DNA of 64,000 nucleotides from an uncultured Lachnospiraceae bacterium (lineage in GTDB: Bacteria; Bacillota; Clostridia; Christensenellales; UBA1242): contig CAYLHO010000001.1 in assembly GCA_964383665.1 (NCBI GenBank), positions 166,921 to 230,920 on the forward strand, in the 5' to 3' direction. Below the pieces are notes generated by a model. That model made no database searches, was not told the DNA's origin, and saw nothing but the letters and a program-made list of their open reading frames with translations. Made by a program: the position numbers and the translations under genes. Position 1 is the stretch's first letter. Each line of letters begins with the position of its first letter. Shown piece by piece: positions 1,246-29,836 of this stretch.

Positions 1246-3879
1246 ATGGCTAAAAACAAATATGTCTATTTATTCTCGGAAGGGAATGCGGACATGAGAA
1301 ACCTCCTTGGAGGAAAAGGTGCAAACCTTGCAGAAATGACAAACATTGGTCTTCCTGTTCCACAAGGCTTCACAGTTACAACAGAAGCATGTGCAAGATA
1401 TTATGAAGACGGCAAAATGTTGGCAGACGACATAATCGAAGAGATTATGGAAGGGCTTGCAAAAATGGAAAAAATAACAGGCAAAAAATTTGGAGATAAA
1501 ACAAATCCTCTTCTTGTTTCTGTTAGAAGCGGTGCAAGAGCTTCAATGCCAGGAATGATGGACACAATCTTGAACCTTGGCTTAAACAGTGAGGTTGTTG
1601 AAGGGCTTGCTTCTTTAACCGGTAACACACGCTTTGCTTACGACAGTTACAGAAGATTTATTCAAATGTTCTCGGACGTTGCTTTGGGGCTTGAAAAATC
1701 TAACTTTGAAAAAATCATCGACAAGATGAAAGAAGAAAAAGGCGTTAAACTTGACACTGAACTTGACGAAAACGACCTTAAAGAAATGGTTAAACGTTTC
1801 AAAAATCTTTTCAAAACAGAAATGGGATATGATTTCCCAGAAGATCCAAAACTTCAACTTTTGGAAGCGGTTAAAGCAGTTTTCCGTTCATGGGACAACC
1901 CACGCGCAATCTACTATCGCCGTGTTAACGACATTCCATCATCTTGGGGAACAGCAGTTAACATTCAATCCATGGTTTTTGGAAACATGGGCGAACAAAG
2001 CGGAACAGGCGTTGCATTCACTCGTGACCCAGCAACCGGCGAAAAGAAATTGTATGGCGAATATCTTATGAACGCTCAAGGGGAAGACGTTGTTGCAGGA
2101 ATCAGAACTCCACAACCAATTTCACACCTTGAAGAACAAAACAAAGCGCTTTATGAAGAATTTGTTGCAATTGCAAACAAACTTGAAAACCACTATCGCG
2201 ACATGCAAGATATGGAGTTCACAATTGAAAATGGAAAACTCTATATGCTTCAAACAAGAAACGGAAAGAGAACTGCAAAAGCAGCGCTCAAAATTGCAGT
2301 TGACCTTGTTAAAGAAGGAATGTTAACAGAGCAAGAGGCTCTTATGAAACTTGAGCCAAAACAACTTGATGCTCTTTTGCATCCACAATTTGATGCAGCA
2401 GCACTTAAAGCTGCGCAACCAATTGGAAAAGCTCTTCCAGCATCTCCAGGCGCAGCAAGCGGAATTGTTGCATTCACAGCCGAAAGAGCAATTGAACTTC
2501 ATGCAGAGGGAAAGAAAATTGTTCTCGTTCGTTTGGAAACTTCCCCAGAAGATATTGAGGGAATGGCAGCCAGCGAAGGAATTTTAACAGCGCGCGGAGG
2601 AAGAACATCTCACGCTGCTGTTGTTGCAAGAGGAATGGGAACAGCATGCGTTGCTGGTTGCCAAGATCTTCTTGTTGACGAAGAAAATAAAAAATTCACA
2701 CTTGGCGGGAAAACATTTGTTGAAGGCGACCCAATTGCAATTGACGGATCAACCGGATTGATCTATGGCGAAGCTGTTAAAACAGTTCCTGCTTCAATTT
2801 CAGGCGATTTTGGAACAATTATGGCTTGGGCAGACGAAAACCGTGCTCTTCAAGTAAGAACAAATGCCGATTCTCCAGCTGACGCTCAAACAGCATTCAA
2901 TTTTGGAGCAGAGGGAATTGGTCTTTGCAGAACAGAACATATGTTCTTTGATGCCGACAGAATTCCAGCAGTTCGTGAAATGATTGTTTCAAAAACTGTT
3001 GAAGAAAGAAAACGTGCTCTTGCAAAACTTCTTCCAATGCAAAGAAAAGACTTTATTGGCATGTATAAAGCGATGAAAGGAAGACCAGTTACGATTCGTT
3101 TCTTGGATCCACCTCTCCACGAATTCTTGCCTCATGAAGATTTCGAAATTGAAGGCCTTGCAAAAGAAATGGGCTTAACGTTCGACGAACTTAAGGCAAC
3201 AGTTGAAGGACTTAAGGAAGTTAACCCAATGATGGGTCACAGAGGACTTCGCCTTGCAATAACATATCCAGAAATTGCTGAAATGCAAACAAGAGCTGTT
3301 ATTGAAGCGGCAATTCAAGTTAAACAAGAAGACGGATATAACATCGTTCCAGAAATTATGATTCCATTAACATGCGACAGCAAAGAATTTAACTTTGTTC
3401 GCGATGTTGTTGCACGCGTTGCAGATGAAATTATTGCAGAAAAAGGCGTTGAAATGACATACAAAATTGGAACAATGATTGAAATTCCACGCGCTGCATT
3501 AACAGCTGACGAAGTTGCAAAAACAGCAGAATTCTTCTCATTTGGAACAAACGACTTAACTCAAATGACATATGGATTCAGCCGTGATGACGCTGGAAAA
3601 TTCTTGGATTACTACTATGAAAGAAAGATTTTTGAAAGCGATCCATTTGCAAAACTCGACCAAAACGGCGTTGGAAAACTTGTTAAGATGGCAGCAGACC
3701 TTGGAAGATCAACTCGTCCAGACATCAAACTTGGAATTTGCGGCGAACATGGCGGCGATCCAAGCAGTATTGAATTCTGCCATAAAGCAGGGCTTAACTA
3801 TGTTTCGTGCAGCCCATATCGCGTTCCAATTGCGCGTCTTGCAGCAGCACAAGCAAACATTCTTAACCCAAGAAAATAG
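1246..3879 (+). CDS. ppdK: pyruvate, phosphate dikinase
   Basis: Start is the ATG at 1246, behind an AGGAG RBS, rather than the TTG at 1204. Motifs seen: GGKGANLAEM, the phosphohistidine region GGRTSHAAVVARG, and the PEP-utilising C-terminal GICGEHGGDP. Confidence 0.95.
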   Translation: MAKNKYVYLFSEGNADMRNLLGGKGANLAEMTNIGLPVPQGFTVTTEACARYYEDGKMLADDIIEEIMEGLAKMEKITGKKFGDKTNPLLVSVRSGARASMPGMMDTILNLGLNSEVVEGLASLTGNTRFAYDSYRRFIQMFSDVALGLEKSNFEKIIDKMKEEKGVKLDTELDENDLKEMVKRFKNLFKTEMGYDFPEDPKLQLLEAVKAVFRSWDNPRAIYYRRVNDIPSSWGTAVNIQSMVFGNMGEQSGTGVAFTRDPATGEKKLYGEYLMNAQGEDVVAGIRTPQPISHLEEQNKALYEEFVAIANKLENHYRDMQDMEFTIENGKLYMLQTRNGKRTAKAALKIAVDLVKEGMLTEQEALMKLEPKQLDALLHPQFDAAALKAAQPIGKALPASPGAASGIVAFTAERAIELHAEGKKIVLVRLETSPEDIEGMAASEGILTARGGRTSHAAVVARGMGTACVAGCQDLLVDEENKKFTLGGKTFVEGDPIAIDGSTGLIYGEAVKTVPASISGDFGTIMAWADENRALQVRTNADSPADAQTAFNFGAEGIGLCRTEHMFFDADRIPAVREMIVSKTVEERKRALAKLLPMQRKDFIGMYKAMKGRPVTIRFLDPPLHEFLPHEDFEIEGLAKEMGLTFDELKATVEGLKEVNPMMGHRGLRLAITYPEIAEMQTRAVIEAAIQVKQEDGYNIVPEIMIPLTCDSKEFNFVRDVVARVADEIIAEKGVEMTYKIGTMIEIPRAALTADEVAKTAEFFSFGTNDLTQMTYGFSRDDAGKFLDYYYERKIFESDPFAKLDQNGVGKLVKMAADLGRSTRPDIKLGICGEHGGDPSSIEFCHKAGLNYVSCSPYRVPIARLAAAQANILNPRK

Positions 3880-17398: not shown

Positions 17399-17486
17399 GG
17401 AAAGGTGTCAGAGTGGTCGAATGTGCCGGTCTCGAAAACCGGTGAGGTGAAAGCCTCCGCGGGTTCAAATCCCGCCCTTTCCGCCA
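17399..17486 (+). tRNA. tRNA-Ser (anticodon CGA), CCA encoded
   Basis: Cloverleaf folded by hand. Acceptor GGAAAGG/CCTTTCC, anticodon arm CCGGT-CTCGAAA-ACCGG, long variable arm GAGG..CCTC, and T arm GCGGG-TTCAAAT-CCCGC. Confidence 0.88.
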
Positions 17487-17519
17487 AAAAAATCCTTGCA
17501 GAAACGCGAGGCTTTTTTT
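17485..17519 (+). repeat. left copy of a perfect 35-bp direct repeat (also the tRNA-Ser terminator hairpin)
   Basis: CAAAAAAATCCTTGCAGAAACGCGAGGCTTTTTTT. It begins inside the tRNA CCA end. The hairpin is CCTTGC/GCGAGG, flanked by A7 and T7. Confidence 0.95.
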
Positions 17520-17613
17520 ATGATATTTTTAATATTTTTTTGAAATTTTTTTTATTTATTTGTTGATTTTTAATCCTTTATGTTATATTTATCTTGTAAA
17601 GGGGAGTTGAATT

Positions 17614-18372
17614 ATGGAGGAAAATAAAAATTAACAAATAAAAGCACGAAAAATGCTGTTAAAAAATCAGCAAAAAAAGATGAAACAGTTGTTAATGTTA
17701 ACGGGGAACAACCTGTTTCAATTTCAGTTCCAAACGAAACTGGAAACAGCAAAACCGAAGGAACAAACATAAACCTAACAATTAATTTTGCTGACGATAA
17801 AAAGAAAAAGCAAACAACAAAAAAGAAACCATCGAAAAAGAAAAACGAACAACAAAAGGAAAACGAAGTGAAGAAGAAAAAGTCTTATTGGTGGTGTCAC
17901 ATCAGTTGTTATGTTCTGCGGCAGCAAAGTCTTAAAAGCAATTTCCAACAAAATTAAAAGTTTTAAGAATCGCGATATTTCGCAAGAACAAATTGAAAGA
18001 GCAGTTTCAACAGCAAAAGCAGGGGATTGTAAGGAGCTTAATGATTTATTAAATAAAAAAGCAAGTAAAGTTGCACAACAAGTTCGTGCAGAAAATCCTA
18101 ACTGGACTAAAATGCGACAAGGATCAGAGATTCATAAAAGAATGAGTTATAGTCTTAACACAATTAAAGAATTTGATTTAAATTCTTATGGAAGAGCAGA
18201 TGGTATAGATGATATTGTAGGTATAATATTTGAGTTAAGACCACTCACCCCGAAATCTATGCTGGCAGGTTTGAAACAATTAGATAGATACGAGCAGGGC
18301 GCATTGCGTCACCAAGACTTGCAAAAAATTACAAATTGGATTAAAGTATTAATTACTTATGATACAAATTAA
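17614..18372 (+). pseudogene. frameshifted gene: Lys-rich N-terminal region, hydrophobic segment and C-terminal PD-(D/E)xK nuclease-like (polymorphic-toxin-type) domain
   Basis: Promoter-like sequence and an AAGGGGAG RBS precede the ATG at 17614, but a stop follows after 6 codons. The reading frame continues in frame 3 (17628-17900) and then frame 1 (17872-18372). Both shifts lie in A runs. The C-terminus has GSEIH, GRADGIDDIVGIIFELRP and GLKQLDRY. Confidence 0.5.
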
Positions 18373-18387
18373 AAGAAAGGGGAATTT

Positions 18388-18837
18388 ATGAAAACTATAG
18401 TCAACAACATAGGAGATGGCATTAGTGTTGTCGAGACCAATAAGAGAAATTGTGAATTTGCAACAAAAGAAATATTGTTGGAATATTTGAAAGAGCAATT
18501 CAAAAAATCCGGATTCAAAAAGACGAAGCAAACATGGTATAAAGATGATGGAGAGTTAATATATGTTTTTAATGTCCAAAATTCTCAATATGGAAGTGAC
18601 ACTTTTTATTTTAATATAGGTTTAATTTTTTCAAAAAAGGGCTTTAAGATGTCAAATCAAGAATGGAATTGTTGGGCGAGATTTCCATATGGGAAAACAA
18701 TGGAAAATACTTTTGAAAACATACTAAAATGGTTTGAAAAATATAATTCAATCGACAAGATAAAGGTGGAATCAACAAAACCAGTCAAATGTCTCACAGA
18801 TCCAAGATGGCGTTTGGGTGAAATCTTGGGCAAATAG
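18388..18837 (+). CDS. immunity-protein-like hypothetical (DUF4304-like)
   Basis: Starts 15 nt after the toxin-like ORF, behind an AAAGGGGAA RBS. LKEQFKKSGFKKTKQTWYKDDGELIYVFNVQNSQYGSDTFYFNIGL resembles the DUF4304 core (from memory). Confidence 0.5.
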   Translation: MKTIVNNIGDGISVVETNKRNCEFATKEILLEYLKEQFKKSGFKKTKQTWYKDDGELIYVFNVQNSQYGSDTFYFNIGLIFSKKGFKMSNQEWNCWARFPYGKTMENTFENILKWFEKYNSIDKIKVESTKPVKCLTDPRWRLGEILGK

Positions 18838-18838
18838 T

Positions 18839-18949
18839 CCCAGAAATGTTATATTTGTGACGGACAATTTGCGAAAAGTTTTGAAAAAGAATAAAATCAC
18901 AGGCATTGATTTTGATAAAACATATACATATGGCGAGAAAGAGAAATAA
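18839..18949 (+). pseudogene. start-less C-terminal fragment resembling another immunity protein
   Basis: Frame 2 reads PRNVIFVTDNLRKVLKKNKITGIDFDKTYTYGEKEK-stop. There is no start codon. It resembles the C-terminal tail of Imm/DUF1629-like proteins. Confidence 0.3.
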
Positions 18950-18986
18950 TAGATGTTGAGAGGGGATATGCGCAAGAGAAAAAAAT

Positions 18987-19016
18987 AAAAAGCACCGAAA
19001 CGAAAGGTGCTTTTTT
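18987..19016 (+). terminator. intrinsic terminator inside the islet
   Basis: AGCACC/GGTGCT hairpin followed by T6. Confidence 0.6.
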
Positions 19017-19147
19017 GTGCGTGCGGGTGCAAATATCTCAGTCGCGTTGGACTTTGCGCAAAAGATTATTATCAGAGAGAACTTGACTCAAGTCTTTCTG
19101 GGGGGGGTAGATTATCGAATTTCCTATTAAAAACAACTTAAAAACTT

Positions 19148-19182
19148 CAAAAAAATCCTTGCAGAAACGCGAGGCTTTTTTT
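19148..19182 (+). repeat. right copy of the perfect 35-bp direct repeat (serves as terminator of the minus-strand DUF11 gene)
   Basis: Same 35-mer as 17485-17519. Here the T run extends to 10. Confidence 0.95.
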
Positions 19183-19192
19183 TTTGTTCCAA

Positions 19193-19957
19193 TCAGTTAA
19201 CTTGAACTTTGAATGAGACTGTTATTGTTCCGTTTGCCGGAAGATTTGGAAGGGGGAAACCAGTTGTTGGGTTGTAAGTTGGCTGTGGAGTTCCGTTAAC
19301 AACAACACTTTCGTTAACAAAAGTTACGTCAGAAGGAATTGAGTCGGAGAAAACAATATTCGTGTTTTCAAGCGAGCCTTCGTTTGTTATCGTTATTGTG
19401 TAGGTCATTTCGTTTCCTGAAACAACGGCAACAGGAGAGCATTCCTTCAAAAGATAGACTTCATTTTCCACGATGCTAATCTCCTTTTCATTTGATGTTA
19501 ATGAGAATTCTTGGCTGTCGAAGGTTAAAGTTAAATCAGTTTTGTTTTTAACAACCGATTCTTCCGGATATTCTGAAATTTGAATTTCGTAAGTTATCTC
19601 TGCGAAAGCGCCAAAACCGCCAATTTGGGCGTTTGAAGAAAACCCAGTTATTGGATTAAATGTTGGTTCGGGCTCATCGCTTATTTTAACAGTTCCCGGA
19701 ACAAACGATGCGCCCGGGGAAAGAGTGTCTTTAAAAGTGAAATTTTGGATTGTTAAATTCGAGTTGTTTGTTATTTTTGTTGTGACCGTTATTTTTTCTT
19801 TTGGAAGAGCCCAATCTTTTTGAACCGTTTTTTCAACAATAAAATCCGATTCAACCTTGGTTGTTGTGCAAACATTGCTGAAAGTTGTTAAATCAATTTT
19901 TCCGCCGTCTGGGTTGTCGATTTGAGATGTTATTTGCGCCTTGTTAACAATTCCCAT
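19193..19957 (-). CDS. tandem DUF11 (conserved repeat domain) protein without an obvious signal peptide
   Basis: Two about 110-aa repeats of the form T-x-T-I-T-N-x-G/S, D-[ST]-[IL]-[SP], FV, G[ST]V, NP-x-TGF. Examples are MTYTITITNEGSLENTNIVFSDSIPSDVTFV and ITVTTKITNNSNLTIQNFTFKDTLSPGASFV. The N-terminus MGIVNKAQITSQ is hydrophilic. Confidence 0.7.
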   Translation of the reverse strand: MGIVNKAQITSQIDNPDGGKIDLTTFSNVCTTTKVESDFIVEKTVQKDWALPKEKITVTTKITNNSNLTIQNFTFKDTLSPGASFVPGTVKISDEPEPTFNPITGFSSNAQIGGFGAFAEITYEIQISEYPEESVVKNKTDLTLTFDSQEFSLTSNEKEISIVENEVYLLKECSPVAVVSGNEMTYTITITNEGSLENTNIVFSDSIPSDVTFVNESVVVNGTPQPTYNPTTGFPLPNLPANGTITVSFKVQVN

Positions 19958-24877: not shown

Positions 24878-24906
24878 AAAAAGCGCCAAGGTTTGGTGCT
24901 TTTTTT
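24874..24906. terminator. bidirectional terminator between argR and the recombinase gene
   Basis: A-run, AGCGCCAA/TTGGTGCT hairpin, then a T run. Confidence 0.7.
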
Positions 24907-25936
24907 ATCTCAATTTAACTGCAGTTGATGCGTTTCGGCGAATGTCGTCGTCAATTGCCGCATAGTGTTTTTTCGTTGTGTTAACGTCTTTGTGTCCAAG
25001 AACGTCGGCAACAATGTAGATATCATGAGTTTCGCGATATAGGCTTGTTCCATAGGTGCTTCGAAGTTTATGAGGCGAAATTTTTTTAAGCGGAGTTACT
25101 GCTTGAGCATATTTCTTAACTAAATTTTCAACCGCGCGCGGGGTTATTCTTTTTCTTTGAAGAGAAAGGAAAAGTGCTTGCTCATCGGGATTTACGTCGG
25201 AAAGTTTTTCGCGAGCATTAAGCCATGTTATAAGGGCTTCCTTAATTTCGTTAGAGAAGTATAAAACGGTTTCATTTCCGCCTTTTCGCGTTATTTTAAA
25301 ACTGTTTGTTTCCAAATTTATGTCGGAAACATTAAGCCCAACAAGTTCGCTGATACGTATTCCTGTCCCAAGAAAGGTTGTTAGAATTGCAACATCTCGT
25401 TCGCGAGTTTTGCGATTGTATGTGATTTCCCTTTTCGTAAGATTTTCCGGGCATTCTGCCTCGTCGAGAAGGCGAGCGACTTCATCGGGTTCAAGACGAA
25501 TTATCTCCTTGTCGTGAATTTTTGGGGTTGCAATTTTGGTTATGACGTTTGAAGAAATAAGGTCGCTGTTAAAAAGAAACTTAAACAAACTTCGAATTGC
25601 TGAAAGTTTTCGTGCTTTGCCTTTTTCTTTGTTAATGTGAACTTTCCCGTCCTTTTCGAAGTAGGAAACGTAGCTTAAAAAACGTTCAACATCACGAGAT
25701 TTAAGGTTGTTAAGCTGGGAAAGTGTTATGTTGTTTGGTGAAACACCAAGAGTGTTTCCAAGATATGTGAAAAAGAGTTTTAAATCGGTTAGATAGTTAA
25801 CTCTAGTAAGCGGCGAGGTGTTGTTCTCAATTGATATAACAAAATCTTGAACGTATGATGGAAAAAACATAAGTTCTTGTTGAATTTTCTTTTGATTAAG
25901 AAGATCTCGTTGTGTGTGATAGCTGATGTTTGCCAT
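24905..25936 (-). CDS. XerS-like tyrosine site-specific recombinase
   Basis: 343-aa product. Catalytic residues are present: GIRISE (Arg), TRKGG (Lys), PHKLRST (His-x-x-Arg), LGHKDVNTTKKHY (His and Tyr). The central region (RERDVAILTTFLGTGIRISELVGLNVSDINLETNSFKITRKGG) closely parallels streptococcal XerS as I remember it. Confidence 0.75.
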   Translation of the reverse strand: MANISYHTQRDLLNQKKIQQELMFFPSYVQDFVISIENNTSPLTRVNYLTDLKLFFTYLGNTLGVSPNNITLSQLNNLKSRDVERFLSYVSYFEKDGKVHINKEKGKARKLSAIRSLFKFLFNSDLISSNVITKIATPKIHDKEIIRLEPDEVARLLDEAECPENLTKREITYNRKTRERDVAILTTFLGTGIRISELVGLNVSDINLETNSFKITRKGGNETVLYFSNEIKEALITWLNAREKLSDVNPDEQALFLSLQRKRITPRAVENLVKKYAQAVTPLKKISPHKLRSTYGTSLYRETHDIYIVADVLGHKDVNTTKKHYAAIDDDIRRNASTAVKLR

Positions 25937-29747: not shown

Positions 29748-29836
29748 TGGTGCGGAAAACAGGGTTTGAACCTGCAAGGGATTTAACTCCCACAAGAATC
29801 TGAATCTTGCGCGTTTGCCAATTTCGCCATTTCCGC
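29748..29836 (-). tRNA. tRNA-Leu (anticodon CAG), CCA encoded
   Basis: The reverse complement folds as acceptor GCGGAAA/TTTCCGC, D stem GCG/CGC, anticodon arm CAAGA-TTCAGAT-TCTTG, long variable arm GGGA..TCCC, and T arm GCAGG-TTCAAAC-CCTGT. Confidence 0.85.

What the first reader, a model, noticed from the sequence alone, without database searches (positions are those of the whole stretch)
17485..19182. 1.6-kb islet at the 3' end of tRNA-Ser bounded by perfect 35-bp direct repeats
The 35-mer CAAAAAAATCCTTGCAGAAACGCGAGGCTTTTTTT occurs at 17485-17519, starting inside the CCA end of tRNA-Ser(CGA), and again at 19148-19182. It is itself a bidirectional terminator hairpin. The left copy terminates the tRNA and the right copy terminates the convergent DUF11 gene. 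The simplest history is tRNA-terminator-DUF11, followed by insertion of 1,628 bp with duplication of the core, as in attL/attR. The cargo is a toxin-like pseudogene, an immunity-like gene, an immunity-gene fragment and about 200 bp of non-coding DNA. No integrase or transposase is present. It is therefore either a decayed integrative element or a non-autonomous islet mobilised in trans.
Basis: seen in the sequence. Interest (0 to 1): 0.72.

Follow-up and report, generated by a model that had tools for sequence, protein, structure and literature searches.

The report
Orphan toxin-immunity patch between twin terminators
The two identical 35-bp hairpins are real, but they are older twin terminators that flank a decayed surface-protein gene in a sister strain; the toxin and immunity DNA between them is a copied piece of a large polymorphic-toxin locus patched into that gene, which is ordinary genome tinkering and not a new mobile element.

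Summary
The 35-mer occurs exactly twice (17485-17519, 19148-19182). It abuts tRNA-Ser(CGA) and folds as a bidirectional terminator. The attL/attR reading does not hold.

- **Sister strain.** L027/L028 (about 96% nt identity) has both hairpins, diverged, around an LRR_5 membrane-protein gene. The islet's outer parts (17520-17895 and 19108-19147) are the 5' and 3' ends of that gene.
- **What is new.** Only 17896-19107 is lineage-specific. Of this, 17885-18854 is 96% identical to the last 163 codons of 1860-aa polymorphic toxins plus their DUF4304 immunity gene. 18851-18979 is the tail of that locus's Imm11 array.
- **Left junction.** It lies in an 11-bp microhomology and is out of frame.
- **Toxin state.** The toxin's ELKP motif reads ELRP. 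The immunity gene is intact.
- **Repeat identity.** Other strains with the same islet have a right copy that differs from the left by 1 to 3 bases, so perfect identity is probably derived by gene conversion.

The islet is therefore an ectopic orphan toxin/immunity module, probably kept for immunity, in a plastic slot downstream of tRNA-Ser. How the hairpin was first duplicated is unresolved. Interest is low.

The parts
17399..17486 (+). tRNA-Ser(CGA) with encoded CCA. Homology with all relatives ends within a few bases of its 3' end.
   Evidence: ARAGORN; Rfam tRNA 54.7 bits; blastn to L009/L011/L024 stops at about 17488-17495.
17485..17519 (.). T1, the left copy of the 35-bp hairpin (A7-TCCTTGC-AGAAAC-GCGAGGC-T7). 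Intrinsic terminator of the tRNA.
   Evidence: Present, slightly diverged (GCGAGGAATTTTTA), in sister strain L027.
17520..17895 (+). 5' remnant of the resident gene. It has a promoter-like TGtTATATT at 17581-17589, an RBS AAGGGGAG, and an ATG at 17614 (MEENKN-stop, probably one A lost from an A-run). The Lys-rich open frame 17628-17957 ends ...KKKKSYWW, where the TM helix of the LRR_5 protein begins in L027.
   Evidence: Homology to L027: 17520-17579 at 95.7% and 17722-17895 at 89%. L027 lacks 17580-17721. Frames. L027 translation.
17885..17895 (+). Left recombination junction. TTATTGGTGGT is shared (10/11) by the LRR_5 gene (L027) and the toxin gene (L026). The fusion is out of frame.
   Evidence: Three-way alignment.
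17885..18372 (+). Orphan C-terminal toxin module (Tox-REase-9). 17885-17957 is the constant pre-toxin stretch shared with the AHH allele, and the rest is the variable CT. The first possible start is ATG 17911, with no RBS. The catalytic ELKP motif is mutated to ELRP (K110R).
   Evidence: Pfam. 92-93% aa identity to residues 1699-1860 of the 1860-aa P0129. 95.8% nt identity to L026/L037. L036 match covers 17885-17957 only. K110R, motif from PMC3482391.
18388..18837 (+). Intact DUF4304 gene with a strong RBS (AAAGGGGAA). Cognate immunity candidate for the Tox-REase-9 CT.
   Evidence: Pfam. Same gene at the same 15-nt spacing after the toxin in L026 and L037, 96% aa identity. Identical protein in all islet-bearing contigs.
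18851..18979 (+). 3' fragment of an Imm11 immunity gene (coding to 18949) plus its downstream sequence. This is the tail of the donor toxin locus. About 1.06 kb present in L037 is missing here.
   Evidence: 91.5% nt identity to L037 9809-9938 and L036 10862-10996. 32/32 aa identical to the Imm11 C-terminus.
18980..19107 (+). Segment of unknown origin. It holds a strong intrinsic terminator (18987-19015, -12.6 kcal/mol), about 90 bp of non-coding DNA, and a G8 run.
   Evidence: Fold. No match in L026/L036/L037/L027. No Rfam family.
19108..19147 (+). 3' remnant of the resident LRR_5 gene: stop codon TAG and 37 nt of 3' UTR.
   Evidence: Alignment with L027/L028.
19148..19182 (.). T2, the right copy of the hairpin. 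Shared terminator of the resident gene and the convergent DUF11 gene. It equals T1 in this haplotype only.
   Evidence: Alleles.
19193..19957 (-). DUF11/CLIPPER-domain gene, the right flank of the slot. It evolves fast (63% aa identity where the neighbouring XFP is 89%), is absent in L009/L029, and is truncated in L011.

Best explanation
**What the islet is.** It is not a unit that integrated at the 35-mer. It is a resident, terminator-flanked gene slot downstream of tRNA-Ser. The order is T1, a promoter, a Lys-rich/TM/LRR_5 surface-protein gene, T2, then the convergent DUF11 gene.

**What happened in the window lineage.** The body of the resident gene was overwritten by about 1.2 kb copied from the 3' end of a polymorphic-toxin locus. 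That piece carries the last 163 codons of an approximately 1860-aa toxin (Tox-REase-9 tip), its DUF4304 immunity gene, the tail of an Imm11 array, and a terminator. The left crossover used an 11-bp microhomology and fused the pieces out of frame.

**Functional state.**
- The toxin piece has no start codon and no trafficking domain, and its ELKP motif is ELRP. It is dead or at most a silent reserve.
- The immunity gene keeps its RBS and reading frame.
- Inferred: immunity is transcribed from the resident gene's promoter and protects the cell against Tox-REase-9 toxins delivered by relatives. That would explain why the patch persists.

**The hairpins.** T1 and T2 are paralogous intrinsic terminators that pre-date this event. 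Their perfect identity in the window is a derived state, most simply a short gene conversion from T1 to T2.

**Shown versus inferred.** Homology, junctions, motif change and allele states are shown. Direction of events, expression, protective role, gene conversion, and the donor being the same or a closely related genome are inferred.
For: 1. Sister-strain contigs L027 (spans the whole region) and L028 (independent run) are 95.7-96.4% identical in the flanks. They carry T1 and T2 around an LRR_5 gene. Window 17520-17579, 17722-17895 and 19108-19147 align to that gene's ends, and only 17896-19107 is replaced.
2. Window 17885-18854 is 95.8% identical to L026 and L037. There it forms the 3' end of 1860/1861-aa genes plus the DUF4304 gene. 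Window 18851-18979 matches the end of the same loci.
3. L036 carries the same large gene with an AHH tip and two Imm11 genes. It matches the window only over 17885-17957. This is therefore a true polymorphic toxin with a constant/variable boundary, and the window copy retains 73 bp of the constant part.
4. The junction alignment shows window = L027 up to TTATTGGTGG and window = L026 from there on. The Lys-rich frame runs into nonsense, and the toxin is in another frame.
5. K110 of the ELKP motif is K in 10 of 11 homologues and R only in the window. The motif is listed for Tox-REase-9 in PMC3482391.
6. At T2, L027/L028 and L020 share the loop T and the post-stem A. The window and L001 types have C and C, as in T1.
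7. Relatives show a plastic slot. L009/L029 have tRNA-Ser directly followed by XFP. L024 has a 173-aa gene, MGMT and DUF11. L011 has HTH-FtsK, the 173-aa gene and a DUF11 remnant.
Against: - No genome with a single copy of the hairpin (tRNA-Ser, T, DUF11) was found, so the origin of the T1/T2 duplication is unexplained. An old att-like event for the resident gene cannot be excluded.
- The sister haplotype rests on two short metagenomic contigs, and its LRR_5 gene is itself decayed (a 142-bp 5' deletion and an internal frameshift).
- The host of the full-length toxin loci is unknown. I could not see the rest of the source genome (only 64 kb of a 323-kb contig), so an intragenomic donor is not shown.
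- 18980-19107 has no identified source.
- Gene conversion rests on two sites.
- Toxin and immunity both show many non-synonymous differences from L026 (13 versus 11 synonymous, and 6 versus 4), so purifying selection on immunity is not demonstrated.
- No expression data exist.
Confidence: 0.8

Rival explanations
1. First reader's model. The 1,628-bp toxin/immunity islet is a decayed or non-autonomous integrative element. It inserted into a single tRNA-Ser terminator by site-specific recombination, and the 35-bp copies are attL/attR.
For: Perfect 35-bp direct repeats lie next to a tRNA 3' end. G+C is lower in the islet (0.32 versus 0.36). The slot is variable in relatives. One relative carries an HTH-FtsK/SpoIIIE gene of the kind found in small integrative elements at the same tRNA.
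Against: Both copies exist around a different gene in L027/L028. The breakpoints of the toxin DNA are internal (17885-17895 and about 19107). The islet's ends are homologous to the resident gene. The repeat covers only 2 nt of the tRNA. There is no integrase. The only nearby tyrosine recombinase (24905-25936) sits beside argR in all relatives, as a housekeeping Xer would. No second site for the islet or the 35-mer was found in any collection. Repeats differ in other islet-bearing strains.
Confidence: 0.04
2. An older att-like or Campbell-type event. The resident LRR_5 gene cassette, not the toxin, entered a single ancestral terminator. It did so by site-specific recombination at the hairpin or by a single crossover of a circle carrying a copy of it. 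This created T1 and T2. The toxin patch came later. This model complements the best explanation and does not replace it.
For: T1 and T2 are clearly homologous in all four haplotypes: the 18-nt stem-loop is identical or differs by 1-2 nt. They bracket one promoter-bearing gene. That gene has no close homologue elsewhere (best 44% identity), as expected for an acquired gene. The closest other species (L009/L029) lacks it.
Against: No single-copy state, no recombinase, and no second instance of the hairpin or the gene anywhere. 35 bp is long for a target duplication and short for efficient RecA crossover. The hairpin is a generic terminator shape, and nearly the same 22-mer occurs by chance or convergence in unrelated phyla.
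Confidence: 0.25
3. Reverse polarity. The toxin/immunity arrangement is ancestral, and the LRR_5 gene of L027 replaced it.
For: L027's LRR_5 gene is also a pseudogene, and only two contigs represent it.
Against: In L027 the Lys-rich region, TM helix and LRR_5 domain form one continuous frame. In the window, the same Lys-rich frame runs into nonsense exactly where toxin homology starts. The toxin piece begins in the middle of a 1860-aa coding sequence. Both ends of the LRR_5 gene are retained in the window.
Confidence: 0.03
4. The repeat is an assembly artefact, or a member of a genome-wide repeated palindromic element (REP/MITE-like).
For: Logan k=31 contigs break at the 35-mer in several runs.
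Against: Contigs that span both copies exist where the copies differ by one base (L001, L005, L019). The breaks are what a 35-bp exact repeat does to a k=31 graph. There are only two copies in 64 kb, and none in reference collections apart from unrelated single hits.
Confidence: 0.02

Closest known systems
Orphan C-terminal toxin/immunity modules of polymorphic toxin systems (cdiA-CT/cdiI and rhs-CT orphans; 'standalone toxin cassettes' of Zhang et al. 2012, PMC3482391; Koskiniemi et al. 2014, PMC3967940)
   Same: It is a toxin tip cut off from its delivery region. It retains a short stretch of the conserved pre-toxin sequence and is followed by its cognate immunity gene and remnants of other immunity genes. 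Full-length alleles with alternative tips (Tox-REase-9/DUF4304 versus AHH/Imm11) exist.
   Different: Classical orphans lie directly downstream of the main toxin gene, where homologous recombination can reactivate them. This one is ectopic, inside an unrelated LRR_5 gene next to a tRNA. It is fused out of frame by microhomology and carries a substitution in the catalytic motif. The main gene is not in the window.
Orphan immunity genes, immunity islets and arrays left by effector displacement (for example Vibrio cholerae T6SS arrays, PMC5361080; Salmonella Typhi immunity islet, PMC7400221)
   Same: It has an intact immunity gene next to a dead or absent effector, plus fragments of earlier immunity genes. 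The presumed benefit is protection from non-self toxins.
   Different: Those arrays grow in situ at the effector locus by homologous recombination. Here the piece was transplanted to another locus by illegitimate recombination. The delivery system of the parent toxin is unknown (no LXG, Rhs, PT-TG or other Pfam trafficking domain).
tRNA-associated genomic islands with attL/attR direct repeats
   Same: Location immediately 3' of a tRNA gene, direct repeats at both ends, strain-variable content, low G+C.
   Different: There is no integrase. The repeat is the terminator and not the tRNA 3' segment (2-nt overlap). The repeats pre-date the variable cargo and do not coincide with its breakpoints.

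Membership tests
tRNA-targeting integrative element (attL/attR island) | Encodes, or is demonstrably served by, a site-specific recombinase | tested here: not met
   There is no integrase or transposase ORF in 17487-19192. The nearby Phage_integrase gene is syntenic with argR in all relatives, with or without cargo.
tRNA-targeting integrative element (attL/attR island) | Direct repeats mark the exact boundaries of the DNA that is present or absent between strains | tested here: not met
   Against L027, the differing DNA is 17896-19107 (plus a 142-bp indel). Window 17520-17895 and 19108-19147 are shared.
tRNA-targeting integrative element (attL/attR island) | The repeat contains the 3' part of the tRNA, so the gene is restored on integration | tested here: not met
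   Only the terminal CA of the tRNA lies in the repeat.
tRNA-targeting integrative element (attL/attR island) | Empty site with one core copy in relatives, or an excised circle | tested here: inconclusive
   No single-copy site was found among 9 related haplotypes. k=31 contigs cannot reveal one. Repeat-bounded contigs L022/L023 are uninformative.
Orphan CT/immunity module of a polymorphic toxin system | The toxin domain is homologous to the extreme C-terminus of full-length multi-domain toxins that have alternative tips | tested here: met
   92-93% aa identity to residues 1699-1860 of P0129. P0308 is the same protein with an AHH tip.
Orphan CT/immunity module of a polymorphic toxin system | The cognate immunity gene lies immediately downstream | tested here: met
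   The DUF4304 gene sits 15 nt after the toxin stop in the window, L026 and L037. Neutralisation itself was not tested.
Orphan CT/immunity module of a polymorphic toxin system | Lacks the N-terminal delivery region but keeps part of the conserved pre-toxin sequence | tested here: met
   Homology starts at 17885. Window 17885-17957 also matches the AHH allele L036.
Orphan CT/immunity module of a polymorphic toxin system | Lies downstream of the main toxin gene in the same locus | tested here: not met
   No other P0129-like sequence occurs in the 64-kb window. The module sits inside an LRR_5 gene remnant. The rest of the genome could not be read.
Tox-REase-9 (PF15650) | Pfam score above the gathering threshold | tested here: met
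   44.4 bits against a 27.3 cut-off.
Tox-REase-9 (PF15650) | Conserved motifs GxxxH, E, D, ELKP, YxxE (PMC3482391) | tested here: not met
   G71, H75, E87, D97/D100 and Y127 are present, but ELKP reads ELRP. K is present in the other 10 aligned homologues.
Intrinsic (Rho-independent) terminator | G+C-rich stem-loop followed by a T-run (here on both strands) | tested here: met
   Termination activity is not testable with these tools.
Genome-wide repeated palindromic element (REP/MITE-like) | Many dispersed copies | tested here: not met
   Two copies in 64 kb. No related copies in public collections. The whole source genome was not available.

The most novel reading that the evidence does not exclude
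The T hairpin just 3' of tRNA-Ser(CGA) might be a true recombination site for an unknown trans-acting recombinase in these small-genome gut Clostridia. Single promoter-bearing gene cassettes, first the LRR_5 gene, would then be inserted with duplication of the hairpin, somewhat as at an integron attC. On this reading the perfect identity in the window would reflect recent recombinase activity and not gene conversion.
Probability: 0.06. Interest if true: 0.6.

Novelty: new member of a known kind. Interest (0 to 1): 0.22.

Why it matters
The result is mainly cautionary. Perfect direct repeats next to a tRNA look like att sites, but one sister haplotype showed that they pre-date the cargo.

On the positive side, this is a clean, base-resolved example of an orphan toxin/immunity module leaving its home locus by microhomology-mediated recombination. 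It survives as a probable immunity-only gene in an uncultured gut Clostridia lineage. It also points to an uncharacterised family of approximately 1860-aa polymorphic toxins with Tox-REase-9/DUF4304 and AHH/Imm11 alleles, and it suggests DUF4304 as an immunity family for Tox-REase-9. None of this changes current concepts.

Tried and rejected
- **Wasted homologue search.** I searched with a frame-repaired 254-aa 'full-length' toxin and got nothing. The Lys-rich low-complexity part probably swamped the word index. It also turned out not to belong to the toxin at all.
- **Pattern scans.** A 30-nt core gave 0 hits in GTDB genomes and IMG/VR. A 22-nt degenerate core gave 1 hit (Lutibacter) and 5 unrelated metagenome hits. 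Each is a single terminator-like hairpin with no tRNA or toxin context, which fits chance or convergence.
- **More distant relatives as empty-site controls.** At XFP identity of 93% or below they are too diverged (81-86% nt). Intergenic DNA is unalignable beyond the tRNA.
- **LRR_5 homologue search.** The aim was to find the resident gene elsewhere. Only generic hits of 44% identity or less appeared.
- **Other libraries.** Rfam, phage and plasmid searches of the islet returned only the tRNA.
- **Repeat-bounded contigs L022/L023.** I considered them as possible circles and rejected that. They are what a k=31 graph produces.
- **Two 'frameshifts' as slippage or sequencing error.** I considered and rejected this. 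The second is a recombination junction. Both are identical in all runs.
- **dif/Xer or attC-like site.** There is no sequence or length resemblance, and this was not pursued.
Full report
**1. The observation**

The 35-mer CAAAAAAATCCTTGCAGAAACGCGAGGCTTTTTTT occurs at 17485-17519 and 19148-19182 and nowhere else in the window. This holds even with three mismatches allowed, and none is expected by chance. tRNA-Ser(CGA) is at 17399-17486, so the left copy (T1) begins in the CA of the encoded CCA.

The sequence folds as a 6-bp G+C stem with an AGAAAC loop, extended by A7/T7 (-11.6 kcal/mol). It scores as a terminator in both copies. The right copy (T2) lies 10 nt beyond the stop of the convergent DUF11/CLIPPER gene at 19193-19957.

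Between the copies lie:
- a 153-aa Tox-REase-9 ORF (17911-18372);
- a 149-aa DUF4304 ORF with a strong RBS (18388-18837);
- a 43-aa ORF whose last 32 residues are identical to the C-terminus of a 185-aa Imm11 protein;
- a second, internal terminator (18987-19015);
- about 130 bp of non-coding DNA.

No recombinase is present. G+C is 0.32, against 0.36 for the window.

**2. The same locus in the same population**

Exact-protein look-ups recovered Logan contigs from several runs of one study (SRR141607xx) and one run of another (SRR17244096). All carry the same arrangement, with the same disrupted toxin reading frames.

Contigs that end in the 35-mer (L003, L004, L007, L008), or that run exactly from one copy to the other (L022, L023), are what a 35-bp exact repeat does to a k=31 graph. 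They say nothing about circles.

The contigs that cross both copies have a T2 that differs from T1:
- L001, L005 and L019 have C->T at 19170.
- L020 has three substitutions: loop AGAGAT, and A in place of C after the stem.

**3. Relatives: a plastic slot, but no empty site**

I used the neighbouring phosphoketolase (XFP) as an anchor and fetched the locus from relatives.

| Relative | XFP identity | Content downstream of tRNA-Ser |
|---|---|---|
| L009, L029 | 93% (86% nt overall) | tRNA-Ser with a different terminator, then XFP about 170 bp later; no DUF11 |
| L011-L015 | 90% | HTH_3-FtsK/SpoIIIE gene, a 173-aa membrane protein, a 58-aa DUF11 remnant |
| L024 | 89% | the 173-aa gene, an MGMT gene, a full DUF11 |

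Homology with the window stops within a few bases of the tRNA 3' end and resumes at the DUF11 stop or the XFP promoter. These genomes are too diverged to serve as empty-site controls. They do show that gene content between tRNA-Ser and XFP turns over quickly.

**4. The decisive haplotype**

A 97%-identical DUF11 protein led to L027 (3.7 kb, SRR22923251) and L028 (SRR17221323). Their flanks are 95.7-96.4% identical to the window, which is sister-strain level.

L027 has tRNA-Ser, then a T1 variant, then an LRR_5 gene, then a T2 variant, then DUF11. The LRR_5 product has a Lys-rich N-terminus, a TM helix (SYWWLLILLLLPILAVAFYF) and a BspA-type LRR_5 domain. The gene is itself decayed, with a 142-bp 5' deletion and an internal frameshift.

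Window 17520-17579 and 17722-17895 align to the 5' part of this gene. Window 19108-19147 aligns to its stop codon and 3' UTR. Only 17896-19107 (1,212 bp) replaces the 1,087-bp gene body.

The Lys-rich 'upstream part of the toxin pseudogene' is therefore the N-terminus of a different, resident gene. The repeats bracket that gene in both haplotypes.

**5. Where the toxin DNA came from**

An exhaustive HMMER search with the 153-aa ORF found P0129. This is a 1860-aa protein whose last 153 residues are 93% identical to the window ORF. tblastn extends the match to residues 1699-1860, starting at window 17884.

Its contig L026 and the related L037 carry two upstream genes, the large gene, and a DUF4304 gene 15 nt downstream. 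Window 17885-18854 is 95.8% identical in DNA to both. The boundaries are sharp.

L037 continues with Imm11, a 116-aa ORF and an Imm11 fragment. Window 18851-18979 matches the end of that array at 91.5%. The window copy therefore lacks about 1.06 kb that L037 has.

L036 carries the same large gene (95% nt over 5.9 kb) with an AHH tip and two Imm11 genes. It matches the window only over 17885-17957. Imm11 is the immunity family listed for Tox-AHH in PMC3482391.

This is a true polymorphic toxin locus with tip swapping. The window holds an orphan tip that keeps 73 bp of the constant pre-toxin region. The large protein has no recognised trafficking domain in Pfam. Its host is unknown, though its G+C (0.38) and the 96% identity fit the same species group.

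Segment 18980-19107, which includes the internal terminator, has no identified source.

**6. The junctions and the state of the genes**

A three-way alignment shows window = L027 up to TTATTGGTGG and window = L026 from TT(A/G)TTGGTGGTGTCAC onward. This is an 11-bp microhomology with 10/11 matches.

The fusion is out of frame. The Lys-rich frame (open 17628-17957) reads ...KKKKSYWW and then nonsense. The toxin frame opens at 17872 and has its first ATG at 17911, without an RBS. The apparent second 'frameshift' is thus a recombination scar. The first one (MEENKN-stop after ATG 17614) is consistent with the loss of one A in an A-run, and all strains share it.

The family motif ELKP (PMC3482391) reads ELRP in the window. 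The other 10 aligned homologues have K.

The DUF4304 gene is intact and 96% identical to those of L026 and L037. Codon differences from L026 are 11 synonymous and 13 non-synonymous in the toxin piece, and 4 and 6 in the immunity gene. That is too few to show selection either way.

**7. The repeats themselves**

| Haplotype | T1 | T2 |
|---|---|---|
| L027/L028 | AGAAAC-GCGAGG-A | AGAAAT-GCGAGG-A |
| L020 | as in the window | AGAGAT-GCGAGG-A |
| L001 type | as in the window | AGAAAC-GTGAGG-C |
| window | AGAAAC-GCGAGG-C | AGAAAC-GCGAGG-C |

The outgroup (L027) and L020 share T in the loop and A after the stem in T2. The window and L001 lineage changed both sites to the T1 state within 8 bp. A short T1-to-T2 conversion tract explains this most simply. 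Two independent mutations are possible.

Either way, the two hairpins are old paralogues, older than about 4% nucleotide divergence. Their perfect identity is local to this haplotype.

**8. Mechanism proposed**

- Shown: the slot, the chimera, the donor type, the junction, and the motif change.
- Inferred: a break in the resident LRR_5 gene was repaired, or incoming DNA was incorporated, by illegitimate microhomology-mediated recombination. About 1.2 kb from the 3' end of a polymorphic-toxin locus of the same or a closely related genome was copied in.
- Inferred: the toxin piece is non-functional.
- Inferred: the immunity gene is transcribed from the resident promoter (TGtTATATT at 17581-17589), stops at 18987-19015 or at T2, and protects against Tox-REase-9 toxins of neighbours. 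This would explain why the patch persists in several samples.
- Possible: the 35-bp identical repeats could now mediate occasional deletion of the islet.

**9. Comparison with known systems and verdict**

The islet works like the orphan toxin/immunity modules and immunity islets known from CDI, Rhs, T6SS and T7SS loci (PMC3482391, PMC3967940, PMC5361080, PMC7400221). It differs in being ectopic and in having been created by illegitimate recombination and not homologous recombination.

It fails the tests for a tRNA-targeting integrative element: there is no recombinase, the repeats are not the cargo boundaries, and no tRNA segment lies in the repeat.

What remains open is how the hairpin was first duplicated around the resident gene. 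An old att-like or single-crossover insertion of that gene is possible (about 0.25) but untestable with the data at hand.

Novelty: a new member of a known kind. Interest: low.

Noticed in passing
L026 4778-10825; L037 2682-9907; L036 4302-10960: A family of approximately 1840-1861-aa polymorphic toxins in gut metagenomes. They have a signal peptide, Listeria-Bacteroides-repeat-like segments and C-terminal glycine-rich TM helices, but no recognised Pfam trafficking domain. Alleles carry either Tox-REase-9 + DUF4304 or AHH + 2x Imm11, with leftover Imm11 genes downstream. The delivery route is unknown. DUF4304 appears to be an undescribed immunity partner of Tox-REase-9 (Zhang et al. list Imm54).
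   Followed up: partly
L011 3871-4938 (also L012-L015): In a relative (XFP 90% identical), an HTH_3-FtsK/SpoIIIE gene of the type found in small integrative/conjugative elements sits directly 3' of the same tRNA-Ser. No integrase and no flanking repeats are present, so this may be another decayed insertion in the same slot.
   Followed up: partly
window 19193-19957 (-); L024 5014-5778; L011 5619-5795; L009/L029: The DUF11/CLIPPER gene next to XFP evolves much faster than its neighbours (63% aa identity where XFP is 89%). It is reduced to a 58-aa remnant in one relative and is absent in the closest other species.
   Followed up: partly
L027 about 2380-2400 (minus strand), against window 17580-17721: The sister strain's LRR_5 gene has lost 142 bp that hold its -10 box, RBS and start codon. 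It also has an internal frameshift (NAKYHATATA-stop). The resident gene is therefore decaying independently in both haplotypes.
   Followed up: yes
window 19105-19177 against L020 2030-2110: Fourteen of the 30 differences between the window and L020 (98.9% identical over 2.9 kb) cluster in 75 bp around T2. This suggests a short imported or converted tract at the right end of the slot.
   Followed up: partly
L030 6591-6623 (Lutibacter sp.), L031, L034: Nearly the same hairpin (AAATCCTTGCAGAAATG[CT]GAGGATTTTTTT) serves as a terminator-like element in unrelated Bacteroidota and environmental contigs. This is convergence or chance and has no shared context.
   Followed up: yes
window 24905-25936 (-) and 29748-29836 (-): A 343-aa tyrosine recombinase (Phage_int_SAM_1 + Phage_integrase) lies next to argR and is syntenic in all relatives, so it is probably the housekeeping Xer. 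A second tRNA, Leu(CAG), was not examined for nearby variable DNA.
   Followed up: no
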